From Nitrosopumilaceae archaeon (GTDB lineage: Archaea > Thermoproteota > Nitrososphaeria > Nitrososphaerales > Nitrosopumilaceae), in the NCBI GenBank assembly GCA_965208905.1, contig OZ242365.1:224001-288000 (forward strand): a DNA stretch of 64,000 nucleotides, written 5' to 3'. Numbering within the stretch: the first letter of the stretch is position 1; every line of letters begins with the position of its first letter. Below are positions 15,554 to 29,130 of the stretch, in pieces. A program made the translations under genes and the position numbers. The notes under the pieces are model-generated. The model did no database searches. It was not told the origin of the DNA and worked only from the letters and a program-made list of their open reading frames with translations.

Positions 15554-15578
15554 GGTTCCTCCCGCAAAGTCGGGTGAT
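15554..15578 (+). repeat. left TIR of element 1, GGTTCCTCCCGCAAAGTCGGGTGAT
   Basis: Exact reverse complement of 17145-17169. Confidence 0.95.
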
Positions 15579-15601
15579 GGTTGATGTGTTGTTGGATAGT
15601 G

Positions 15602-15608
15602 TTAAATA
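15602..15608 (+). promoter_or_regulatory. putative TATA box of tnpB-1
   Basis: TTAAATA 19 nt upstream of ATG 15628; the same box precedes tnpB-2. Confidence 0.5.
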
Positions 15609-15627
15609 CGTTATTAAACCGTACTAT

Positions 15628-17145
15628 ATGATGGCTCTTGTAAAAAATAGTAGGGCAATAACACGTACATACACAAAAAATTTGGGTATGCAGTACGTGT
15701 TTGAGCATGTCAGGAAGGTGGCAGAAGTGGCGTACATTATAGCAGATAACACGGGGAAGAATACCTATGGTGTTAACGCATTGATGTATCGTACAATGCG
15801 CGGCCCTGACCCCAAAGTACATTCGTCCATAACGCAGACCGCCATACGGGACGGGGTTGCCGCCCATAACACGTACAATACAAAGACTGCGCAGGGCATG
15901 AAGGTATCTGAGCCCGTGTTTCGCAATCCGGTTGTAAAGTTGAAAAACCAAAATTGGAGGCTGAATCCGATAGCGGGTGGATATATGACTATTGCAAATG
16001 TTGGCTCATCAAAACACCCACATATGATAGCAATTCCCATCTCTTCAGATGTGGTACGCCGCATAGGACAAAATGAGTTGGGCGAGTTGTGGATCACGCC
16101 GACCACATACACCATAACGTATTACAACAAAGTGCCCGAGGTTGACAAGCCCCACCCATACGGCAAGTCAGAGATTATCGAGTTGCTTACGGATGTGGGG
16201 TATGTGGGCGGCACACCAAAGGATGTAATTGGCGTAGATATCAATGAGAAGAACATCACCGTAGGAGATAAAGATACAATGGTACAGTTTGATCTATCCG
16301 ATACGATACAGGCCATTGAAGACGCAAAGACTGAGGATGCAAACAATACGTATACACGTACACATGATAATGCTGTATATGCGGCACGTACCGGAAGGCG
16401 TGTTGTATACAAGAAAGAGGAGGAGCGCAGAGAAAAACAACAAGTTGTGTGTGGCGGTCCCAAGTTACACAGCAAACTCAAACGCAGATACAGAAAACTC
16501 AAGAGGGAGGGCAAACACAAGAGGGCCGCGGAGATAAAGAAGCAGATGAATAAATGCATATTAAACATACAGCATAACCACACAAAGTCAAAGAAGAATG
16601 CTAAAAAGCGCAAGGTGGCCAAAGCCGTGCGCCATCATGAACATGTGCTGAATGTGATGGCACTATGCATCGCACAGTGGGCCGCACAGTCTGGGTGTTT
16701 GGTGGTGTTGGAGGATTTAACCCGCATATCGTATAATTGGCAGAAGGGTGGAAGGTTTGGACGTATGATGCGTCGCAGGTTATATTCTGCCATGATGCGA
16801 AAGGCATCGGATTTAATTTATGAAAAGTCCCGGTTTTTGGGAGTGGAGGCATTACATATGCGTCCACACAACACATCCAAGCTATGTGCTGCGTGCAGAA
16901 CCATACTAACTGGAACTTATCATAGAAAAGACTGCACCCGCTGCCATATAGTTGGCGTAGATCGTGACGTCAACGCAGTGGAGAATATACGGCGAACAAG
17001 TGCCGTATCCCGATATGGTCGTCAGGTTTCGGCCAGTCTGGGCGAAGTCCGTCGTGGTGTGGATGTAATCCTCGATCCCACACCACTCATACAGGGTTGC
17101 TGGAGCAACTGGGCTGACAGACTATCCCGCATAGCGGGGGTGTAA
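15628..17145 (+). CDS. tnpB: TnpB/Cas12f-like RNA-guided nuclease, large form (ORF open from 15574)
   Basis: RuvC-I GVDINEKN, RuvC-II VVLEDL, Zn finger TSKLCAAC...CTRC, RuvC-III DRDVNAVENI. Confidence 0.88.
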   Translation: MMALVKNSRAITRTYTKNLGMQYVFEHVRKVAEVAYIIADNTGKNTYGVNALMYRTMRGPDPKVHSSITQTAIRDGVAAHNTYNTKTAQGMKVSEPVFRNPVVKLKNQNWRLNPIAGGYMTIANVGSSKHPHMIAIPISSDVVRRIGQNELGELWITPTTYTITYYNKVPEVDKPHPYGKSEIIELLTDVGYVGGTPKDVIGVDINEKNITVGDKDTMVQFDLSDTIQAIEDAKTEDANNTYTRTHDNAVYAARTGRRVVYKKEEERREKQQVVCGGPKLHSKLKRRYRKLKREGKHKRAAEIKKQMNKCILNIQHNHTKSKKNAKKRKVAKAVRHHEHVLNVMALCIAQWAAQSGCLVVLEDLTRISYNWQKGGRFGRMMRRRLYSAMMRKASDLIYEKSRFLGVEALHMRPHNTSKLCAACRTILTGTYHRKDCTRCHIVGVDRDVNAVENIRRTSAVSRYGRQVSASLGEVRRGVDVILDPTPLIQGCWSNWADRLSRIAGV

Positions 17146-17169
17146 TCACCCGACTTTGCGGGAGGAACC
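17145..17169 (-). repeat. right TIR of element 1
   Basis: ATCACCCGACTTTGCGGGAGGAACC; overlaps the last base of the tnpB stop codon. Confidence 0.95.
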
Positions 17170-26078: not shown

Positions 26079-26330
26079 CTACCAATCAGTCCCCTCATAT
26101 TTGGTTGGTTTTGCATTTGGGTGAGACTCTCTGAATCTCCATATCAGCCATATTATTGTACCAGATACAACAGCCCCTATTGTAATTGCAACCACCATCA
26201 TTCTAAAGAATAGATTCCATATCTCAACACGACGATCAAGATACTCGCCGGGTTCGGCGGTGGCAGCAAACGCCACATTAACTGTAAACATAACCGCCAT
26301 CATAACTAAAGCTCCAATAATGTATCGCAT
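26079..26330 (-). CDS. small membrane protein resembling the N-terminal TM part of oxidase subunit II
   Basis: IWNLF..TM..WRFRESHP; directly upstream of coxB. Confidence 0.7.
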   Translation of the reverse strand: MRYIIGALVMMAVMFTVNVAFAATAEPGEYLDRRVEIWNLFFRMMVVAITIGAVVSGTIIWLIWRFRESHPNAKPTKYEGTDW

Positions 26331-26374
26331 TCCCTATTCACGATTCTATTAGGAATTCTATTTAATGGTTTACA

Positions 26375-26549
26375 GGGGTATGTCCTACTAGTATAAAGCT
26401 CCCGGAGTTTCCCCCGGCGACCTTATATCAGTAGCATAATTGGATACATCCAGGCGGTCGTCCAGAGATGGTGACTCATCACCCACATAAAGCAAGCTCC
26501 TCGCCTCCCCTTTAGGCCGCCGCCCTTCACCGTCGCATGGAAACCACAA
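26375..26549 (-). repeat. ~175-bp dispersed repeat, copy A
   Basis: Reverse complement aligns with 61949-62122 (shared GACGGTGAAGGGCGGC, GATGAGTCA.CATCTCTGGA, TTTATACTAGT). Confidence 0.85.
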
Positions 26550-26694
26550 GACGATACAGTCCAACAATTGTTGAACGCACTGCTCCCAATCCCAGTCTTA
26601 GTCATGGGCTGTGACGTTATCTGCGCGTGTCCCAAGACAGCGCGTTTGACAACCCGTCGTATAGTTGAGTAGACAAATCTCCTGAATACACCGC

Positions 26695-26701
26695 TTAAAT
26701 A
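26695..26701 (+). promoter_or_regulatory. putative TATA box of tnpB-2
   Basis: TTAAATA 21 nt upstream of ATG 26723. Confidence 0.5.
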
Positions 26702-26722
26702 CCACCGAACTCATTGTATAAT

Positions 26723-28021
26723 ATGAAGTACAAAGACGAAAAGTACGTCATAAAGACTCTACAGTACCGTCTTAAGATATCCACCAGACTCACTCGATAC
26801 TTTAACTCAATGTATTCGGAATCCCACATATGGCTCAATGCAGGAATAAGGGCGCGTAAGGCTGGACTGACGGTGTTTGACACCAATAAGATAGCCACTA
26901 TATGCCAGACCATCCCCCAGGCCTGGGTTCGCGGCGCCATACGTGAAGGCCACAAGATAGAAGGCTGTACGCATGTAAGATATGGTAGGAAGGTTTACCC
27001 CCTGTTTAGTAACGTGCCACTCGGTAAAAAATCCAAAGGTACAACGGTGTATTTCCCAAGATGTAATATACCATTCAAACTACAGAAAGGGCATCTACCC
27101 AATACATCCCAATCATATAAGATAGTGGATGTCACGAACACTACAGACAAGGAGAGGCAGTTCGAACTACATGTAACTATACGTGAGCATGTCCCGGACC
27201 GCGTAGCGACGGGTGTACATGCTGGTATTGATATGGGTGGTAAGCACACGCTTGTTGTTGGAAAGTCCGATGGTAGTATTGCCATGCTGACATTACGTGA
27301 GAAGGATACTATACGGAACATAGCGCGTATGCAAAAGAAGATGAGTAGGTGCAAACTTCACTCCCGCAAGTGGCGCAACCTGCATGATACATTAAACAGC
27401 ATATACCGTAAGTTGGGAAATAGACAGAAAGACAAGCTGCGCAAGTTCTCAAAGAAACTAATGCGGCAGTGTGATAGAATAATCATGGAGGGGATGAACC
27501 TCCGTACAATGACGACCAAGGGTCCCGGGCAGACGCCCAAAAATCGTACGATGCGACAAAGTCATTGTGGTGAGGCGCGGGAGCACATTTCACAACAATA
27601 CCTACGATATAATGTAGAATATACGGAGATAAACCCAAAGAATACCTCAAAGCAGTGCTGTATGTGCGGTAGTTTGAATACGTGGCGCAAGAGCAGTAAG
27701 TTTAGGTGTCATAACTGCGGTATAGTGTGTCATGCGGACATCAATGCGGCATTCAACATACTTTTCGCTTTTCGTATTATACAGTGGAGTAAGCGCGCTC
27801 AGGGCGTTTATTCCCTACAAAACAAGGCTGGAATGGTCTTGAGAGGAAAGATACATCTCGCGACACTTACTATACCCAGTGTCGTTGGTGATGTGATGGC
27901 CGGTACAGGCTGTCACCAGGCTAGGCGTCAAAACCCGGCTGACAATGAACGTCTCTTGGAAACTCCTCTGGATGGTAATTTGCCAACATTTGTTGTACTG
28001 GGCGCAGGCCCAACTGTATAG
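26723..28021 (+). CDS. tnpB: TnpB RNA-guided nuclease
   Basis: RuvC-I AGIDMG, RuvC-II IIMEGMN, TSKQCCMCG...FRCHNCG Zn finger, RuvC-III HADINAAFNI. Confidence 0.9.
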   Translation: MKYKDEKYVIKTLQYRLKISTRLTRYFNSMYSESHIWLNAGIRARKAGLTVFDTNKIATICQTIPQAWVRGAIREGHKIEGCTHVRYGRKVYPLFSNVPLGKKSKGTTVYFPRCNIPFKLQKGHLPNTSQSYKIVDVTNTTDKERQFELHVTIREHVPDRVATGVHAGIDMGGKHTLVVGKSDGSIAMLTLREKDTIRNIARMQKKMSRCKLHSRKWRNLHDTLNSIYRKLGNRQKDKLRKFSKKLMRQCDRIIMEGMNLRTMTTKGPGQTPKNRTMRQSHCGEAREHISQQYLRYNVEYTEINPKNTSKQCCMCGSLNTWRKSSKFRCHNCGIVCHADINAAFNILFAFRIIQWSKRAQGVYSLQNKAGMVLRGKIHLATLTIPSVVGDVMAGTGCHQARRQNPADNERLLETPLDGNLPTFVVLGAGPTV

Positions 28022-28290
28022 CAGCTGTATTGAGTACGCGCATGTATGGACACGCGCAGATAACGTCACAGCCCACTTGGTCATATGACATGAGTCTATA
28101 AGATGCCTTGTGGCTTTGCAGTACTTTGGTGAAGTGTTATTAACTATTTTGCTTCATTGGTTGTCAAAGATGAGGTGTGCAGCCAAATGCTCTATACGTA
28201 ACAGTACAACAGACAAAATAACAGATAGTTTAGAGGATACCTTTGTACAACAAAGAGACTACATCTACAATACCAACGAGTTGCCCTAGA

Positions 28291-29130
28291 ATGATAAACC
28301 TACTGGATGTGGTAAGATGGACATTCAGGCGTAGTCCATCAGATATAATACGACTCTACAACTCCCTCTCAGGAGTCATGGTCACAGCCACTGGAGGGGC
28401 CAGCCTCAACTTTGGACTGTGGTCGGACGACTGTGTTGAACCACTCTTGGCGCAGGACAATATGGCGCGACACTTTGGCAGGATGGCAGACTTGGATACG
28501 GCCAGTGTCGGGGCGGATGTTGGTTGTGGGCGGGGCGGACCTGCTAAAATATGGCAACAGTTGTATCCTGACTTTGATATAATAGGAGTAGACGTAAACC
28601 GTAGAGGTCTAGTAGAGGCCAAGCGTCTGGACCTTGCAGTCAATGCACTCTCTACTAGTCTACCTCTAGCCAATAACTCGATGGATCGTGTGCTTGCACT
28701 AGAGTCTGCGCAACATTTTCGTCCACTGTCAGTATTCACCAATGAAGCTGCCCGCGTATTGAAGCCTGGCGGCATACTATGTATGGCCATACCAGTCGTC
28801 GGACGACAGTACCACATAAGCCGATTGGGAATGCTTTGGTTGACATGGACATCTGAGCATTACAATGTATCGACCATACATGAGGCAATCAAAGCATCTG
28901 GGCTCCATATACAATATGAAGAGATGGTTGGTCCCATGGTGTATCTGCCGATGGCCAACTACTATATGAATAACAGAGACAGATTACAGGAGAGAATCAC
29001 AGCCACATATCCTAGATATGTAGAGTCAATACTGTATCGCTCCATACTAGACATGAGGCGGGCTTCCACACAGGATGTTATTGAGTATATGATTATAAAA
29101 TGTATAAAGCCATCACATGAGCGTATATGA
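28291..29130 (+). CDS. class I SAM-dependent methyltransferase (sterol/tocopherol MT-like)
   Basis: LNFGLW, DVGCGRGG, LESAQHF, RVLKPGG. Confidence 0.85.
   Translation: MINLLDVVRWTFRRSPSDIIRLYNSLSGVMVTATGGASLNFGLWSDDCVEPLLAQDNMARHFGRMADLDTASVGADVGCGRGGPAKIWQQLYPDFDIIGVDVNRRGLVEAKRLDLAVNALSTSLPLANNSMDRVLALESAQHFRPLSVFTNEAARVLKPGGILCMAIPVVGRQYHISRLGMLWLTWTSEHYNVSTIHEAIKASGLHIQYEEMVGPMVYLPMANYYMNNRDRLQERITATYPRYVESILYRSILDMRRASTQDVIEYMIIKCIKPSHERI

What the first reader, a model, noticed from the sequence alone, without database searches (positions are those of the whole stretch)
26597..28083. Second, unrelated TIR family also carrying an intact tnpB (element 2)
Seen: perfect 28-bp TIRs (TGGGCTGTGACGTTATCTGCGCGTGTCC) with an imperfect inner extension (ACA.GCGCGT), flanks CTTAGTCA/CTTGGTCA (7/8, consistent with an aged 8-bp TSD), a putative TATA box, and a tnpB with intact catalytic motifs. 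Both the TIR and the protein differ clearly from element 1. Inference: tnpB was paired with TIR-type ends at least twice in this lineage. The GGGCTGTGACG end loosely recalls IS1595-family ends (8-bp TSD), but that assignment is uncertain.
Basis: partly seen in the sequence, partly recalled or inferred. Interest (0 to 1): 0.85.

Follow-up and report, generated by a model that had tools for sequence, protein, structure and literature searches.

The report
TnpB gene riding an inverted-repeat transposon
This is a recently inserted small transposon of an ammonia-oxidising archaeon that carries only an RNA-guided nuclease gene (tnpB) inside ends of the kind used by classical cut-or-copy transposases, so it is a natural case for asking what such nucleases do outside their usual transposon families.

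Summary
Window 26605-28075 is a 1,471-bp element with perfect 28-bp terminal inverted repeats. A same-genus genome (G005; flanks 98-99% identical) has the empty site with a single CTTGGTCA, so insertion was exactly repeat-to-repeat with an 8-bp duplication.

Its only gene is an intact TnpB with the D-E-D triad and zinc finger. A conserved, structured, omega-RNA-like 3' block runs into the right repeat.

The complete genome has no Y1 or serine TnpA. None of 41 genomes searched (G000 and 40 relatives) has a Y1 hit over the cut-off. G000 nevertheless has 75 TnpB-domain hits. Of 58 long tnpB ORFs, 20 show inverted repeats plus 8-bp duplications by script, and more by eye.

The ends best match an IS6-related transposon in the same genome (13 of 16 terminal bases), not the resident IS1595 elements (7-8 of 16). 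IS1595-type ends bracket other TnpB lineages here.

My reading is a non-autonomous TnpB/omega-RNA cargo element moved in trans by an IS6-related DDE transposase.

TnpB association with DDE transposases is published in general. I found no paper on IS6 or IS1595 shells, so I class this as a new variant of a known kind. The scan had noted this same stretch once before, from another window.

The parts
26597..26604 (.). Left copy of the 8-bp target-site duplication (CTTAGTCA, one substitution)
   Evidence: The empty site in G005 has a single CTTGGTCA.
26605..26632 (+). Left terminal inverted repeat, 28 bp (TGGGCTGTGACGTTATCTGCGCGTGTCC)
   Evidence: The same repeat bounds three other units in the genome.
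26623..26645 (+). Imperfect palindrome spanning the inner end of the left repeat (GCGCGTGTC-CCAA-GACAGCGCG)
   Evidence: Read from the sequence. A similar palindrome lies at the right end.
26695..26701 (+). TTAAATA box about 22 nt before the ATG, a putative archaeal promoter for a leaderless tnpB mRNA
   Evidence: The CCGCTTAAATA motif is conserved at the same place in the paralogues. Its function is inferred.
26723..28021 (+). tnpB gene, 432 aa from the ATG (435 aa from TTG at 26714); intact RuvC D-E-D triad and zinc finger
   Evidence: Full-length relatives at 76-78% identity cover 97-100% of it.
27823..28075 (+). Omega-RNA-like block: a strongly conserved, structured region that overlaps the 3' end of tnpB and runs to the element tip
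   Evidence: The 10-copy alignment has long invariant runs. The consensus fold has 44 pairs, 7 with compensatory changes. The minimum free energy is -89.4 kcal/mol, z = -2.54. A terminal hairpin is predicted in 9 of 9 right ends. No RNA data are available.
28048..28075 (-). Right terminal inverted repeat, 28 bp
28076..28083 (.). Right copy of the 8-bp target-site duplication (CTTGGTCA, identical to the empty site)

Best explanation
Element 2 is a non-autonomous DNA transposon: a shell of 28-bp inverted repeats whose only cargo is an intact tnpB gene with its presumed omega-RNA.

Shown: it inserted precisely, repeat to repeat, with an 8-bp staggered target cut. This happened after the split from a sister genome whose flanks are 98-99% identical.

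Inferred: a DDE transposase supplied in trans moved it. The best candidate class is the IS6-related transposases (SWIM plus DDE_Tnp_IS240, 420-500 aa), which in this genome sit in 3.4-6.4-kb transposons carrying restriction-modification genes. The closest end is that of the transposon at genome 1130912-1134320 (GGGGCTGTTAAGTTAACG...).

Inferred by analogy with characterised TnpB systems: tnpB is transcribed from the conserved TTAAATA promoter. The omega-RNA is made from about 27823 through the right repeat into the flank, so its guide would be the duplicated octamer plus the right flank. The ribonucleoprotein would then cut element-free copies of the locus, and recombinational repair would restore or spread the element.
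For: Structure and boundaries.

Family behaviour: in the TnpB clade that includes this element (68-95% aa identity), 6 of the 9 copies whose ends tabulated (A, B, C, F, G, H) have 8-bp duplications matching at 7-8 of 8. Copies D, E and I do not.

Genome-wide: an automated scan found inverted repeats plus an 8-bp duplication matching at 7 of 8 or better in 20 of 58 tnpB-like ORFs of 400 aa or more. The scan undercounts. It missed element 1, whose repeats are perfect.

No cognate TnpA: Y1_Tnp and Resolvase gave 0 hits in the 99.57%-complete single-contig genome. Y1_Tnp was over the cut-off in 0 of 41 genomes searched (G000 and 40 relatives). TnpB-domain hits number 75 here and 8-51 in 8 of 9 congeners.

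IS6 link:
- The tip matches the 1130912 transposon end at 13 of 16 bases, a value reached by 0 of 5000 shuffles.
- That transposon encodes an intact 425-aa transposase. It scores Pfam DDE_Tnp_IS240 at 51 bits against a cut-off of 27 and NCBIfam transpos_IS6 at E = 2e-29 over model positions 1-198 of 202.
- Two of these transposons show perfect 8-bp duplications.
- Sister repeat types iv, v and vi match other IS6-related ends at 12 of 16.
- Solo TnpB right-end fragments carry an 18-nt block identical to the end of the 6.4-kb IS6-related transposon.
- The IS6 review gives an 8-bp duplication, GG tips and cTGTt and caaa motifs as family features (PMC7986276, passages). This element's tip reads TGGGCTGTG.

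Precedent for trans-mobilised solo TnpBs with DDE-type inverted ends: PMC10691335, section 9. The tnpB stop codon lies 54 bp from the element end, within the 250 bp reported there.
Against: No transposase gene bounded by exactly this repeat was found in the genome, in 40 relatives or in the metagenome scan. The candidate transposon's end diverges from this repeat beyond about position 17, so cross-recognition is unproven.

The element tip is TGGG rather than the GG tip of IS6.

The candidate transposases score below NCBIfam's IS6 cut-off (102.6 against 125 bits).

The element has no close paralogue in this genome. The best are 83% (different ends) and 78% (same ends) at nucleotide level. It may therefore have arrived by transfer and been moved by a transposase that is not resident.

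IS6 elements are described as replicative. That leaves no excised donor site for a TnpB homing role.

No conserved TAM-like motif is evident 5' of the duplication in the 6 clade members with duplications.

The omega-RNA is predicted only. For this copy alone, the terminal hairpin folds no better than shuffles (z = 0.31).
Confidence: 0.62

Rival explanations
1. An IS1595-family transposase mobilises element 2, as the first reader tentatively proposed.
For: IS1595-family transposases are present and intact in the genome (NCBIfam transpos_IS1595 at 176 bits). Their GGGAATTATA... ends are shared at 13-14 of 16 bases with the most abundant TnpB elements here, which also make 8-bp duplications. From my recollection of ISfinder, not tested here, one IS1595 subgroup has GGGgctg tips.
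Against: The resident IS1595 ends match this element's tip at only 7-8 of 16 (T1, T2) and 4 of 16 (T6). Values of 7-8 are the mode of the shuffled controls. No IS1595 gene lies within or beside any unit bounded by this repeat.
Confidence: 0.12
2. The element is stranded. It arrived by horizontal transfer or was moved by a transposase since lost, and nothing resident can move it now. The resemblance to IS6-related ends reflects only distant common ancestry of the ends.
For: There is no exact-repeat transposase anywhere searched. The element is single-copy at 84% nucleotide identity or above in this genome. A 95%-identical TnpB fragment exists on a 1,548-bp contig from another sample (P0003). 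The repeat is absent from all 9 congeners searched.
Against: The insertion is young. The repeats are perfect, the duplication has one change, and the site is absent from a genome whose flanks are 98-99% identical. Three other units with the same repeat exist in the genome, including one with different cargo and a 135-bp miniature form, which implies repeated mobilisation in this lineage.
Confidence: 0.18
3. It is an ordinary IS200/IS605-type (IS1341-group) or IS607-type tnpB element moved by a TnpA, and the inverted repeats are incidental.
For: The protein belongs to the TnpB family that is usually found in those elements. Imperfect palindromes exist near both ends.
Against: Those families have neither terminal inverted repeats nor target duplications (PMC13565253 and PMC4810608, passages). 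Here both are shown by an empty site. No Y1 or serine recombinase is present in the genome. The IS200_TnpB and IS607_TnpB NCBIfam models score far below their cut-offs (65 against 425 and 72 against 350 bits).
Confidence: 0.01
4. TnpB itself takes part in mobility. Its guide would be fixed and would correspond to the terminal repeat, so that it cuts at the element's own ends.
For: The conserved omega-RNA-like core ends 30-90 nt before the tip and is followed directly by the repeat in every repeat type. No dedicated transposase is linked to the element.
Against: An 8-bp duplication requires a staggered strand transfer, which no TnpB is known to perform. The tip nucleotides are predicted to be paired inside a hairpin rather than free as a guide in 9 of 9 right ends. 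The same shells exist around non-TnpB cargo.
Confidence: 0.03

Closest known systems
DDE-transposase-associated TnpB branches (Altae-Tran et al. 2023, PNAS, PMC10691335; section 9 read)
   Same: TnpB lies inside a transposon with inverted terminal repeats. The tnpB 3' end is within 250 bp of the end. Solo TnpBs carry the ends of transposase-bearing elements, which implies mobilisation in trans.
   Different: The main text names IS630 for one branch. A 2026 review (PMC13565253, passages) lists ISL2, IS630 and IS1031. Neither IS6 nor IS1595 appears in the main text of the PNAS paper, and the supplements could not be seen. Here no element holds both genes. The genome lacks TnpA altogether. One genome holds six or more end types around several TnpB lineages.
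Fanzor (eukaryotic TnpB homologues) in TIR transposons
   Same: An RNA-guided nuclease rides as cargo in cut-and-paste-type elements that have inverted repeats and target duplications, often without a transposase gene (PMC13565253, passages).
   Different: This element is prokaryotic (archaeal) and compact at 1.47 kb. The protein is of ordinary TnpB size with no eukaryotic extensions.
IS1341-group tnpB-only insertion sequences of IS200/IS605
   Same: Size of about 1.4 kb, with tnpB as the only gene and a structured RNA region at the 3' end.
   Different: Those elements have no inverted repeats and no duplication, and they need a Y1 TnpA. This one has both features and no Y1 is available.
IS6 family insertion sequences (Varani et al. 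2021, PMC7986276; passages read)
   Same: An 8-bp duplication, and a G-rich tip followed by a CTGT motif in the repeat. Related repeat types in sister copies also carry the caaa motif (GGCACTGTCAAATC).
   Different: No transposase is encoded in the element. The repeat is 28 bp rather than 15-20 bp. The tip is TGGG rather than GG. The candidate partner transposases are about twice the usual IS6 size and fall below the curated IS6 cut-off. Passenger genes are reported for only one IS6 member.

Membership tests
TnpB RNA-guided endonuclease | Profile match above the curated cut-off | tested here: met
   NCBIfam guided_TnpB scores 114.4 bits against a cut-off of 100. Pfam OrfB_IS605 and Cas12f1-like_TNB are both above their cut-offs.
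TnpB RNA-guided endonuclease | RuvC D-E-D catalytic triad and CxxC...CxxC zinc finger | tested here: met
   D173, E259 and D342 align with the D, E and D of solved TnpB-type chains, and CCMCG...CHNCG is present.
TnpB RNA-guided endonuclease | Omega-RNA encoded at the 3' end of the gene and reaching the transposon end | tested here: inconclusive
   A conserved structured block was found. Rfam gave no match, and no RNA run was listed.
IS200/IS605 (including the IS1341 group) | No terminal inverted repeats and no target-site duplication; insertion 3' of a fixed 4-5-nt site | tested here: not met
   The element has 28-bp repeats and an 8-bp duplication, shown by the empty site. The duplicated octamers differ between copies.
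IS200/IS605 (including the IS1341 group) | A Y1 (HUH) TnpA available in the genome | tested here: not met
   PF01797 gave 0 hits in the own genome and was over the cut-off in 0 of 41 genomes searched (G000 and 40 relatives).
IS607 | Serine-recombinase TnpA; no inverted repeats and no duplication | tested here: not met
   PF00239 gave 0 hits in the own genome. Repeats and a duplication are present.
IS6 family | 8-bp direct target repeat | tested here: met
   The family feature is taken from PMC7986276.
IS6 family | Short terminal repeats with GG tips and cTGTt and caaa motifs | tested here: inconclusive
   The tip reads TGGGCTGTGACG, so GG and CTGT are present but offset by one base, and there is no caaa. 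Sister type vi reads GGCACTGTCAAATC.
IS6 family | Encodes an IS6-type DDE transposase | tested here: not met
   The only ORF with a family match is tnpB. The element would be a non-autonomous derivative at most.
IS6 family | Transposition through cointegrates | not testable with these tools
   This needs a transposition assay.
IS1595 family | Ends related to those of an IS1595 transposase-bearing element | tested here: not met
   Matches to the three resident IS1595 end types are 7, 8 and 4 of 16, at or below the shuffle mode. An ISfinder comparison was not possible.
DDE-associated TnpB branches DDE-1 to DDE-6 | Phylogenetic placement in one of the published branches | not tested
Non-autonomous TIR element (MITE-like, with cargo) | Inverted repeats plus a duplication, no transposase, and related miniature forms | tested here: met
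   A 135-bp miniature form and a 1,054-bp form with other cargo share the repeat.

The most novel reading that the evidence does not exclude
In this archaeal genus TnpB/omega-RNA modules have left the TnpA transposons entirely. They live as interchangeable cargo in shells mobilised by at least two DDE families, one IS6-related and one IS1595. The right-end repeat would serve at once as the transposase binding site and as the 3'-terminal stem of the guide RNA. If the IS6-type partner is replicative, no empty donor site is created. TnpB must then serve a purpose other than post-excision homing, for example converting element-free chromosome copies, or triggering the recombination that resolves cointegrates.
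Probability: 0.2. Interest if true: 0.8.

Novelty: new variant of a known kind. Interest (0 to 1): 0.6.

Why it matters
Current models tie the benefit of TnpB to the scarless excision made by Y1 or serine TnpA. A 2026 review uses that link to explain why TnpB is rarely found with DDE transposases (PMC13565253).

Here a complete genome has 75 TnpB-domain hits and no TnpA. Its congeners show the same pattern. The elements show the hallmarks of DDE transposition, and an empty site proves recent activity.

This gives a compact natural system, with defined ends, candidate transposases and several TnpB lineages, for two tests. The first is whether TnpB promotes retention of DDE transposons. The second is whether one sequence can act as both a transposase site and a guide-RNA scaffold. 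It also adds small archaeal TnpB and omega-RNA pairs with clearly marked transposon ends to the pool of candidate genome editors.

Tried and rejected
- RNA evidence: the run search listed 4 runs of one study and sample, none on record as RNA. There are therefore no data on expression.
- Laying the contigs of those runs gave only short assembly pieces. The one joint (26629 to 28050) has loose ends that match the flanks of the other same-repeat unit at 1880028-1881081. I read it as a repeat-collapsed piece, not an excision product.
- Rfam at E up to 1 over 26300-28400: 0 matches.
- Exact-repeat search in the metagenome collection: 0 stretches. Search in 40 relatives with up to 3 mismatches: 0 genomes.
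- A tblastn search for tnpB inside the four IS1595 transposase elements examined found nothing below E = 0.3. No composite element was seen.
- The ends of the two rve-type families and the IS630 family were compared and do not resemble this repeat.
- In relatives, 4 of 5 tnpB loci examined (four in G005 and locus L044, which lies on the same 2,127,936-bp contig as G005:C1) showed no bracketing inverted repeat. One G005 locus showed the GGGAATTAT type with an 8-bp duplication. I therefore do not claim that all TnpBs of the genus are in such shells.
- A TAM-like motif 5' of the duplication was sought. Across 20 elements, position -3 is T in 13 and position -1 is G in 11. In the 6 clade members there is no clear 4-5-nt motif.
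- The 416-aa ORF beside a degenerate repeat copy at 1599470 has no Pfam match.
- The 121-aa ORF in the 1,054-bp sister unit has no Pfam match.
- Literature searches: TnpB + IS1595 gave 9 papers, none judged relevant from the listing (titles and starts of abstracts). Cenarchaeum + TnpB gave 0. TnpB + IS6 family + RNA-guided gave 1, an MRSA genome paper judged irrelevant from its listing. Supplements of PMC10691335 were closed and might name further DDE families.
Full report
**1. The observation**

The arms at 26605-26632 and 28048-28075 are 28 nt long and fully complementary. The pattern occurs only at these two places in the window, against none expected from 100 shuffles. The octamers outside the arms are CTTAGTCA and CTTGGTCA. 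An imperfect palindrome extends inward from each arm.

The one long ORF (26714/26723-28021, plus strand) matches Pfam OrfB_IS605 and Cas12f1-like_TNB. It also matches NCBIfam guided_TnpB above its cut-off. In its alignment to solved TnpB-type chains, D173, E259 and D342 fall on the RuvC D, E and D, and both CxxC pairs are present. Relatives of 430-441 aa at 76-78% identity cover 97-100% of it, so the gene is full length.

**2. The boundaries are proven by an empty site**

I searched the window segment 25000-29800 against the nine other genomes of the genus. Genome G005 matched both flanks at 99% and 98% identity, and the two matches overlap by 9 bp. Read directly, the G005 locus is ...CCCAATCCCCGGT-CTTGGTCA-TATGACACGAG... 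It has one octamer and no element.

The element therefore inserted precisely from repeat tip to repeat tip and duplicated 8 bp. The left copy has since acquired one substitution. The ninth overlapping base is a T shared by the element tip and the right flank. Copies B and H, where the next flank base is G, show that the T belongs to the element and that the duplication is 8 bp.

**3. The repeat is not unique to this site**

The whole genome is one contig of 2.21 Mb, 99.57% complete. The 28-mer with up to 3 mismatches occurs seven times:
- the two arms here;
- a second tnpB element at 2209813-2211265, 78% identical, with a perfect GTTCAGAG duplication;
- a 1,054-bp unit at 1880028-1881081, which keeps about 50 nt of the left end and about 115 nt of the right end but carries unrelated DNA, with a 121-aa ORF that has no Pfam match;
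- one end of a 135-bp miniature element at 1905800, whose other end is a different repeat type.

Two degenerate solo copies lie near 1599470 and 1601047. The repeat was not found in any of 40 relatives, including 9 congeners. It was also not found in the metagenome collection.

**4. The genomic setting**

About 18% of the genome (406 kb in 293 regions) is repeated at 300 bp or more. Clustering ORFs from these regions gave three TnpB-like clusters (54, 15 and 9 ORF pieces). It also gave two rve-type families, an IS630 family, an IS110 family, an IS1595 family, and a family with SWIM plus DDE_Tnp_IS240 domains.

Pfam Y1_Tnp and Resolvase gave no hit in six-frame searches of the genome. Y1_Tnp was over the cut-off in 0 of 41 genomes searched (G000 and 40 relatives), with one sub-threshold hit. 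The TnpB TNB domain gave 75 hits here and 8-51 hits in 8 of 9 congeners. TnpB has therefore multiplied in this genus without its usual partner.

**5. TnpB elements here have inverted repeats and 8-bp duplications as a rule**

A script examined the 58 tnpB-like ORFs of 400 aa or more. It found a bracketing inverted repeat plus an octamer matching at 7 of 8 or better in 20 of them, and 16 of those are perfect 8 of 8. The script undercounts. It missed element 1, whose 23-bp repeats are perfect. It also missed copies H and F, whose TAGACTAA and TGATCACG duplications are visible by eye.

The repeats fall into types:
- (i) GGGAATTATATAC...
- (ii) GGTTCCTCCCGCAA... (this is element 1)
- (iii) TGGGCTGTGACG... 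(this element)
- (iv) TGAGCTGGTAAC...
- (v) GGAACTGTCCC...
- (vi) GG(C/T)ACTGTCAAATC...

Types iii-vi all surround one TnpB clade of 68-95% aa identity. Type i surrounds at least three TnpB lineages that are only 24-35% identical to one another. Type ii surrounds two lineages with no BLASTP match to each other. This element's core is closer to a type-iv copy (83%) than to the other type-iii copy (76-78%).

Shells and cargo are thus recombined freely.

**6. Which transposase?**

Type i ends equal the ends of the resident IS1595 transposase elements at 13-14 of 16 bases.

For this element the three resident IS1595 end types match at only 7, 8 and 4 of 16 bases. Values of 7-8 are the mode of the shuffled controls.

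A note from an earlier follow-up on the same genome (e1-2588701) described an IS6-related cargo transposon, and it led me to compare those ends. The SWIM-DDE_Tnp_IS240 transposases sit in 3.4-6.4-kb transposons with 40-50-nt repeats. The two I annotated also carry a DNA methyltransferase, and one of them carries a HaeIII-type endonuclease as well. Two of these transposons have perfect 8-bp duplications, GAATTTTT and GTCAATAC.

The end of the transposon at 1130912-1134320, GGGGCTGTTAAGTTAACG, matches this element's tip at 13 of 16 bases. No one of 5000 shuffles reached 13 against any of the 11 transposase ends. Types iv, v and vi each match an IS6-related end at 12 of 16.

Short solo TnpB right-end fragments at 1662026 and 1711168 carry GGTAAGTTAACGT(G/A)AGAT. 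The 1711168 copy is identical over 18 nt to the end of the 6.4-kb transposon, and the 1662026 copy differs at one base.

The IS6 review states that the family makes 8-bp repeats and has GG tips with cTGTt and caaa motifs (PMC7986276, passages). That consensus fits types iii-vi.

The 425-aa transposase of the 1130912 transposon is intact. It matches NCBIfam transpos_IS6 over the whole model at E = 2e-29, but at 102.6 bits it is below the cut-off of 125. I therefore call it IS6-related, not IS6.

No unit holds both this transposase and tnpB, so mobilisation would be in trans. This step is inferred, not shown.

**7. The RNA part**

I aligned the last 260 nt of ten clade copies. Long invariant runs begin about 250 nt before the tip (for example GGAATGGTCT.GAGAGG.AAGATACATCT and CTCCTCTG.ATGG). 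These lie in copies that are otherwise only 73-83% identical.

The consensus fold has 44 pairs, 7 of them with compensatory changes. It includes a long-range stem, AGAGGA with UCCUCU. By eye, a further hairpin differs as a whole between two groups of copies: CGACACT...AGTGTCG against GCACTTG...CAAGTG(C/T). The 256-nt RNA of this copy folds at -89.4 kcal/mol, z = -2.54.

In 9 of 9 right ends, across four repeat types, the minimum-energy fold pairs the outermost repeat bases (...ACAG) with an inner CUGU-type partner. This leaves 0-4 nt (2-4 in eight of the nine) unpaired at the tip. For this copy alone that hairpin is no better than shuffles (z = 0.31).

The pattern suggests a guide RNA whose last stem is built from the transposase site, with the guide starting in the duplicated octamer. 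Rfam has no match, and no RNA run was listed, so the RNA remains a prediction.

**8. Mechanism and its weak points**

Shown:
- precise insertion with an 8-bp duplication;
- an intact nuclease gene;
- no TnpA in the genome;
- shared end motifs with DDE transposons.

Inferred:
- trans-mobilisation by an IS6-related enzyme;
- a promoter at TTAAATA;
- an omega-RNA reading through the right repeat;
- cleavage of element-free alleles.

Weak points:
- No transposase with the exact repeat has been found.
- IS6 elements are described as replicative, which removes the excised donor site that TnpB is thought to attack.
- No clear TAM-like motif lies beside the duplications.
- There is no close paralogue in the genome, so transfer from another strain is possible. 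A 95%-identical protein fragment exists in another sample.

**9. Comparison with what is known**

IS200/IS605, the IS1341 group and IS607 are excluded by tested features: repeats, duplication and no TnpA. Those families are described as lacking both repeats and duplications.

The closest described class is the DDE-associated TnpBs of Altae-Tran et al. 2023. [quoted passage not shown] The general idea is therefore published.

What I did not find in print is a link to IS6-related or IS1595 shells, or a lineage in which TnpB lives only in such shells (searches; main text of PMC10691335). The supplements were closed and may list further families.

The organism is a Nitrosopumilaceae archaeon. The nearest named TnpB hits are from Cenarchaeum MAGs.

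**10. Verdict**

The feature is real and its boundaries are proven. I rate it a new variant of a known kind, of moderate to good interest as a test bed for TnpB function in DDE transposons.

Noticed in passing
window 26377-26593: The roughly 220 bp directly left of the element is itself a repeat, homologous to the 3' end of a third TnpB-like family (cluster 7; copies at genome 877419-877640 and 1020305-1020516, among others). It is already present at the orthologous G005 locus. About 230-bp copies occur many times in congeners, for example at least 14 listed in G006. It may be a solo right end or a miniature element derived from an omega-RNA region.
   Followed up: partly
window 15554-17169 (element 1) and genome copies at 60k, 329k and 872k: Element 1 has perfect 23-bp repeats (GGTTCCTCCCGCAAAGTCGGGTG). 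In the 3 of 3 family copies where the script found perfect 8-bp duplications, the four bases 5' of the duplication are CTTA. This could be a TAM or a target preference. A further copy of the repeat lies at window 34740.
   Followed up: partly
genome 376972-378456 (copy H); also 1455264 and 2049469: Some TnpB elements have very long inverted repeats (114 nt, or 84 nt). In these the left end carries an inverted duplicate of the last part of the omega-RNA-like region. Such elements could in principle make guide RNAs reading outward into both flanks.
   Followed up: no
genome 1880028-1881081 and 1905800-1905935: The same repeat as element 2 bounds a 1,054-bp unit with unrelated cargo, including a 121-aa ORF with no Pfam match. 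It also forms one end of a 135-bp miniature element whose other end is repeat type iv, so this is a hybrid of two end types.
   Followed up: partly
genome 1337692-1341644 and 1851328-1854929: Two copies of an IS6-related transposon carry swapped flanking octamers: GTCCGTTG/AAAATAAC at one and AAAATAAC/GTCCGTTG at the other. This is the pattern expected from an inversion between inverted copies or from intramolecular replicative transposition.
   Followed up: no
genome 1130912-1134320 and 18695-22054: IS6-related transposons carry restriction-modification genes: a D12-class methyltransferase plus a HaeIII-type endonuclease in one, and an N6/N4 methyltransferase in the other.
   Followed up: partly
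whole genome G000 and its genus: About 18% of the genome is repeated DNA (293 regions, 406 kb). It has 75 TnpB-domain hits and no Y1 or serine TnpA. Congeners show 8-51 TnpB hits and likewise no Y1 hit over the cut-off.
   Followed up: yes
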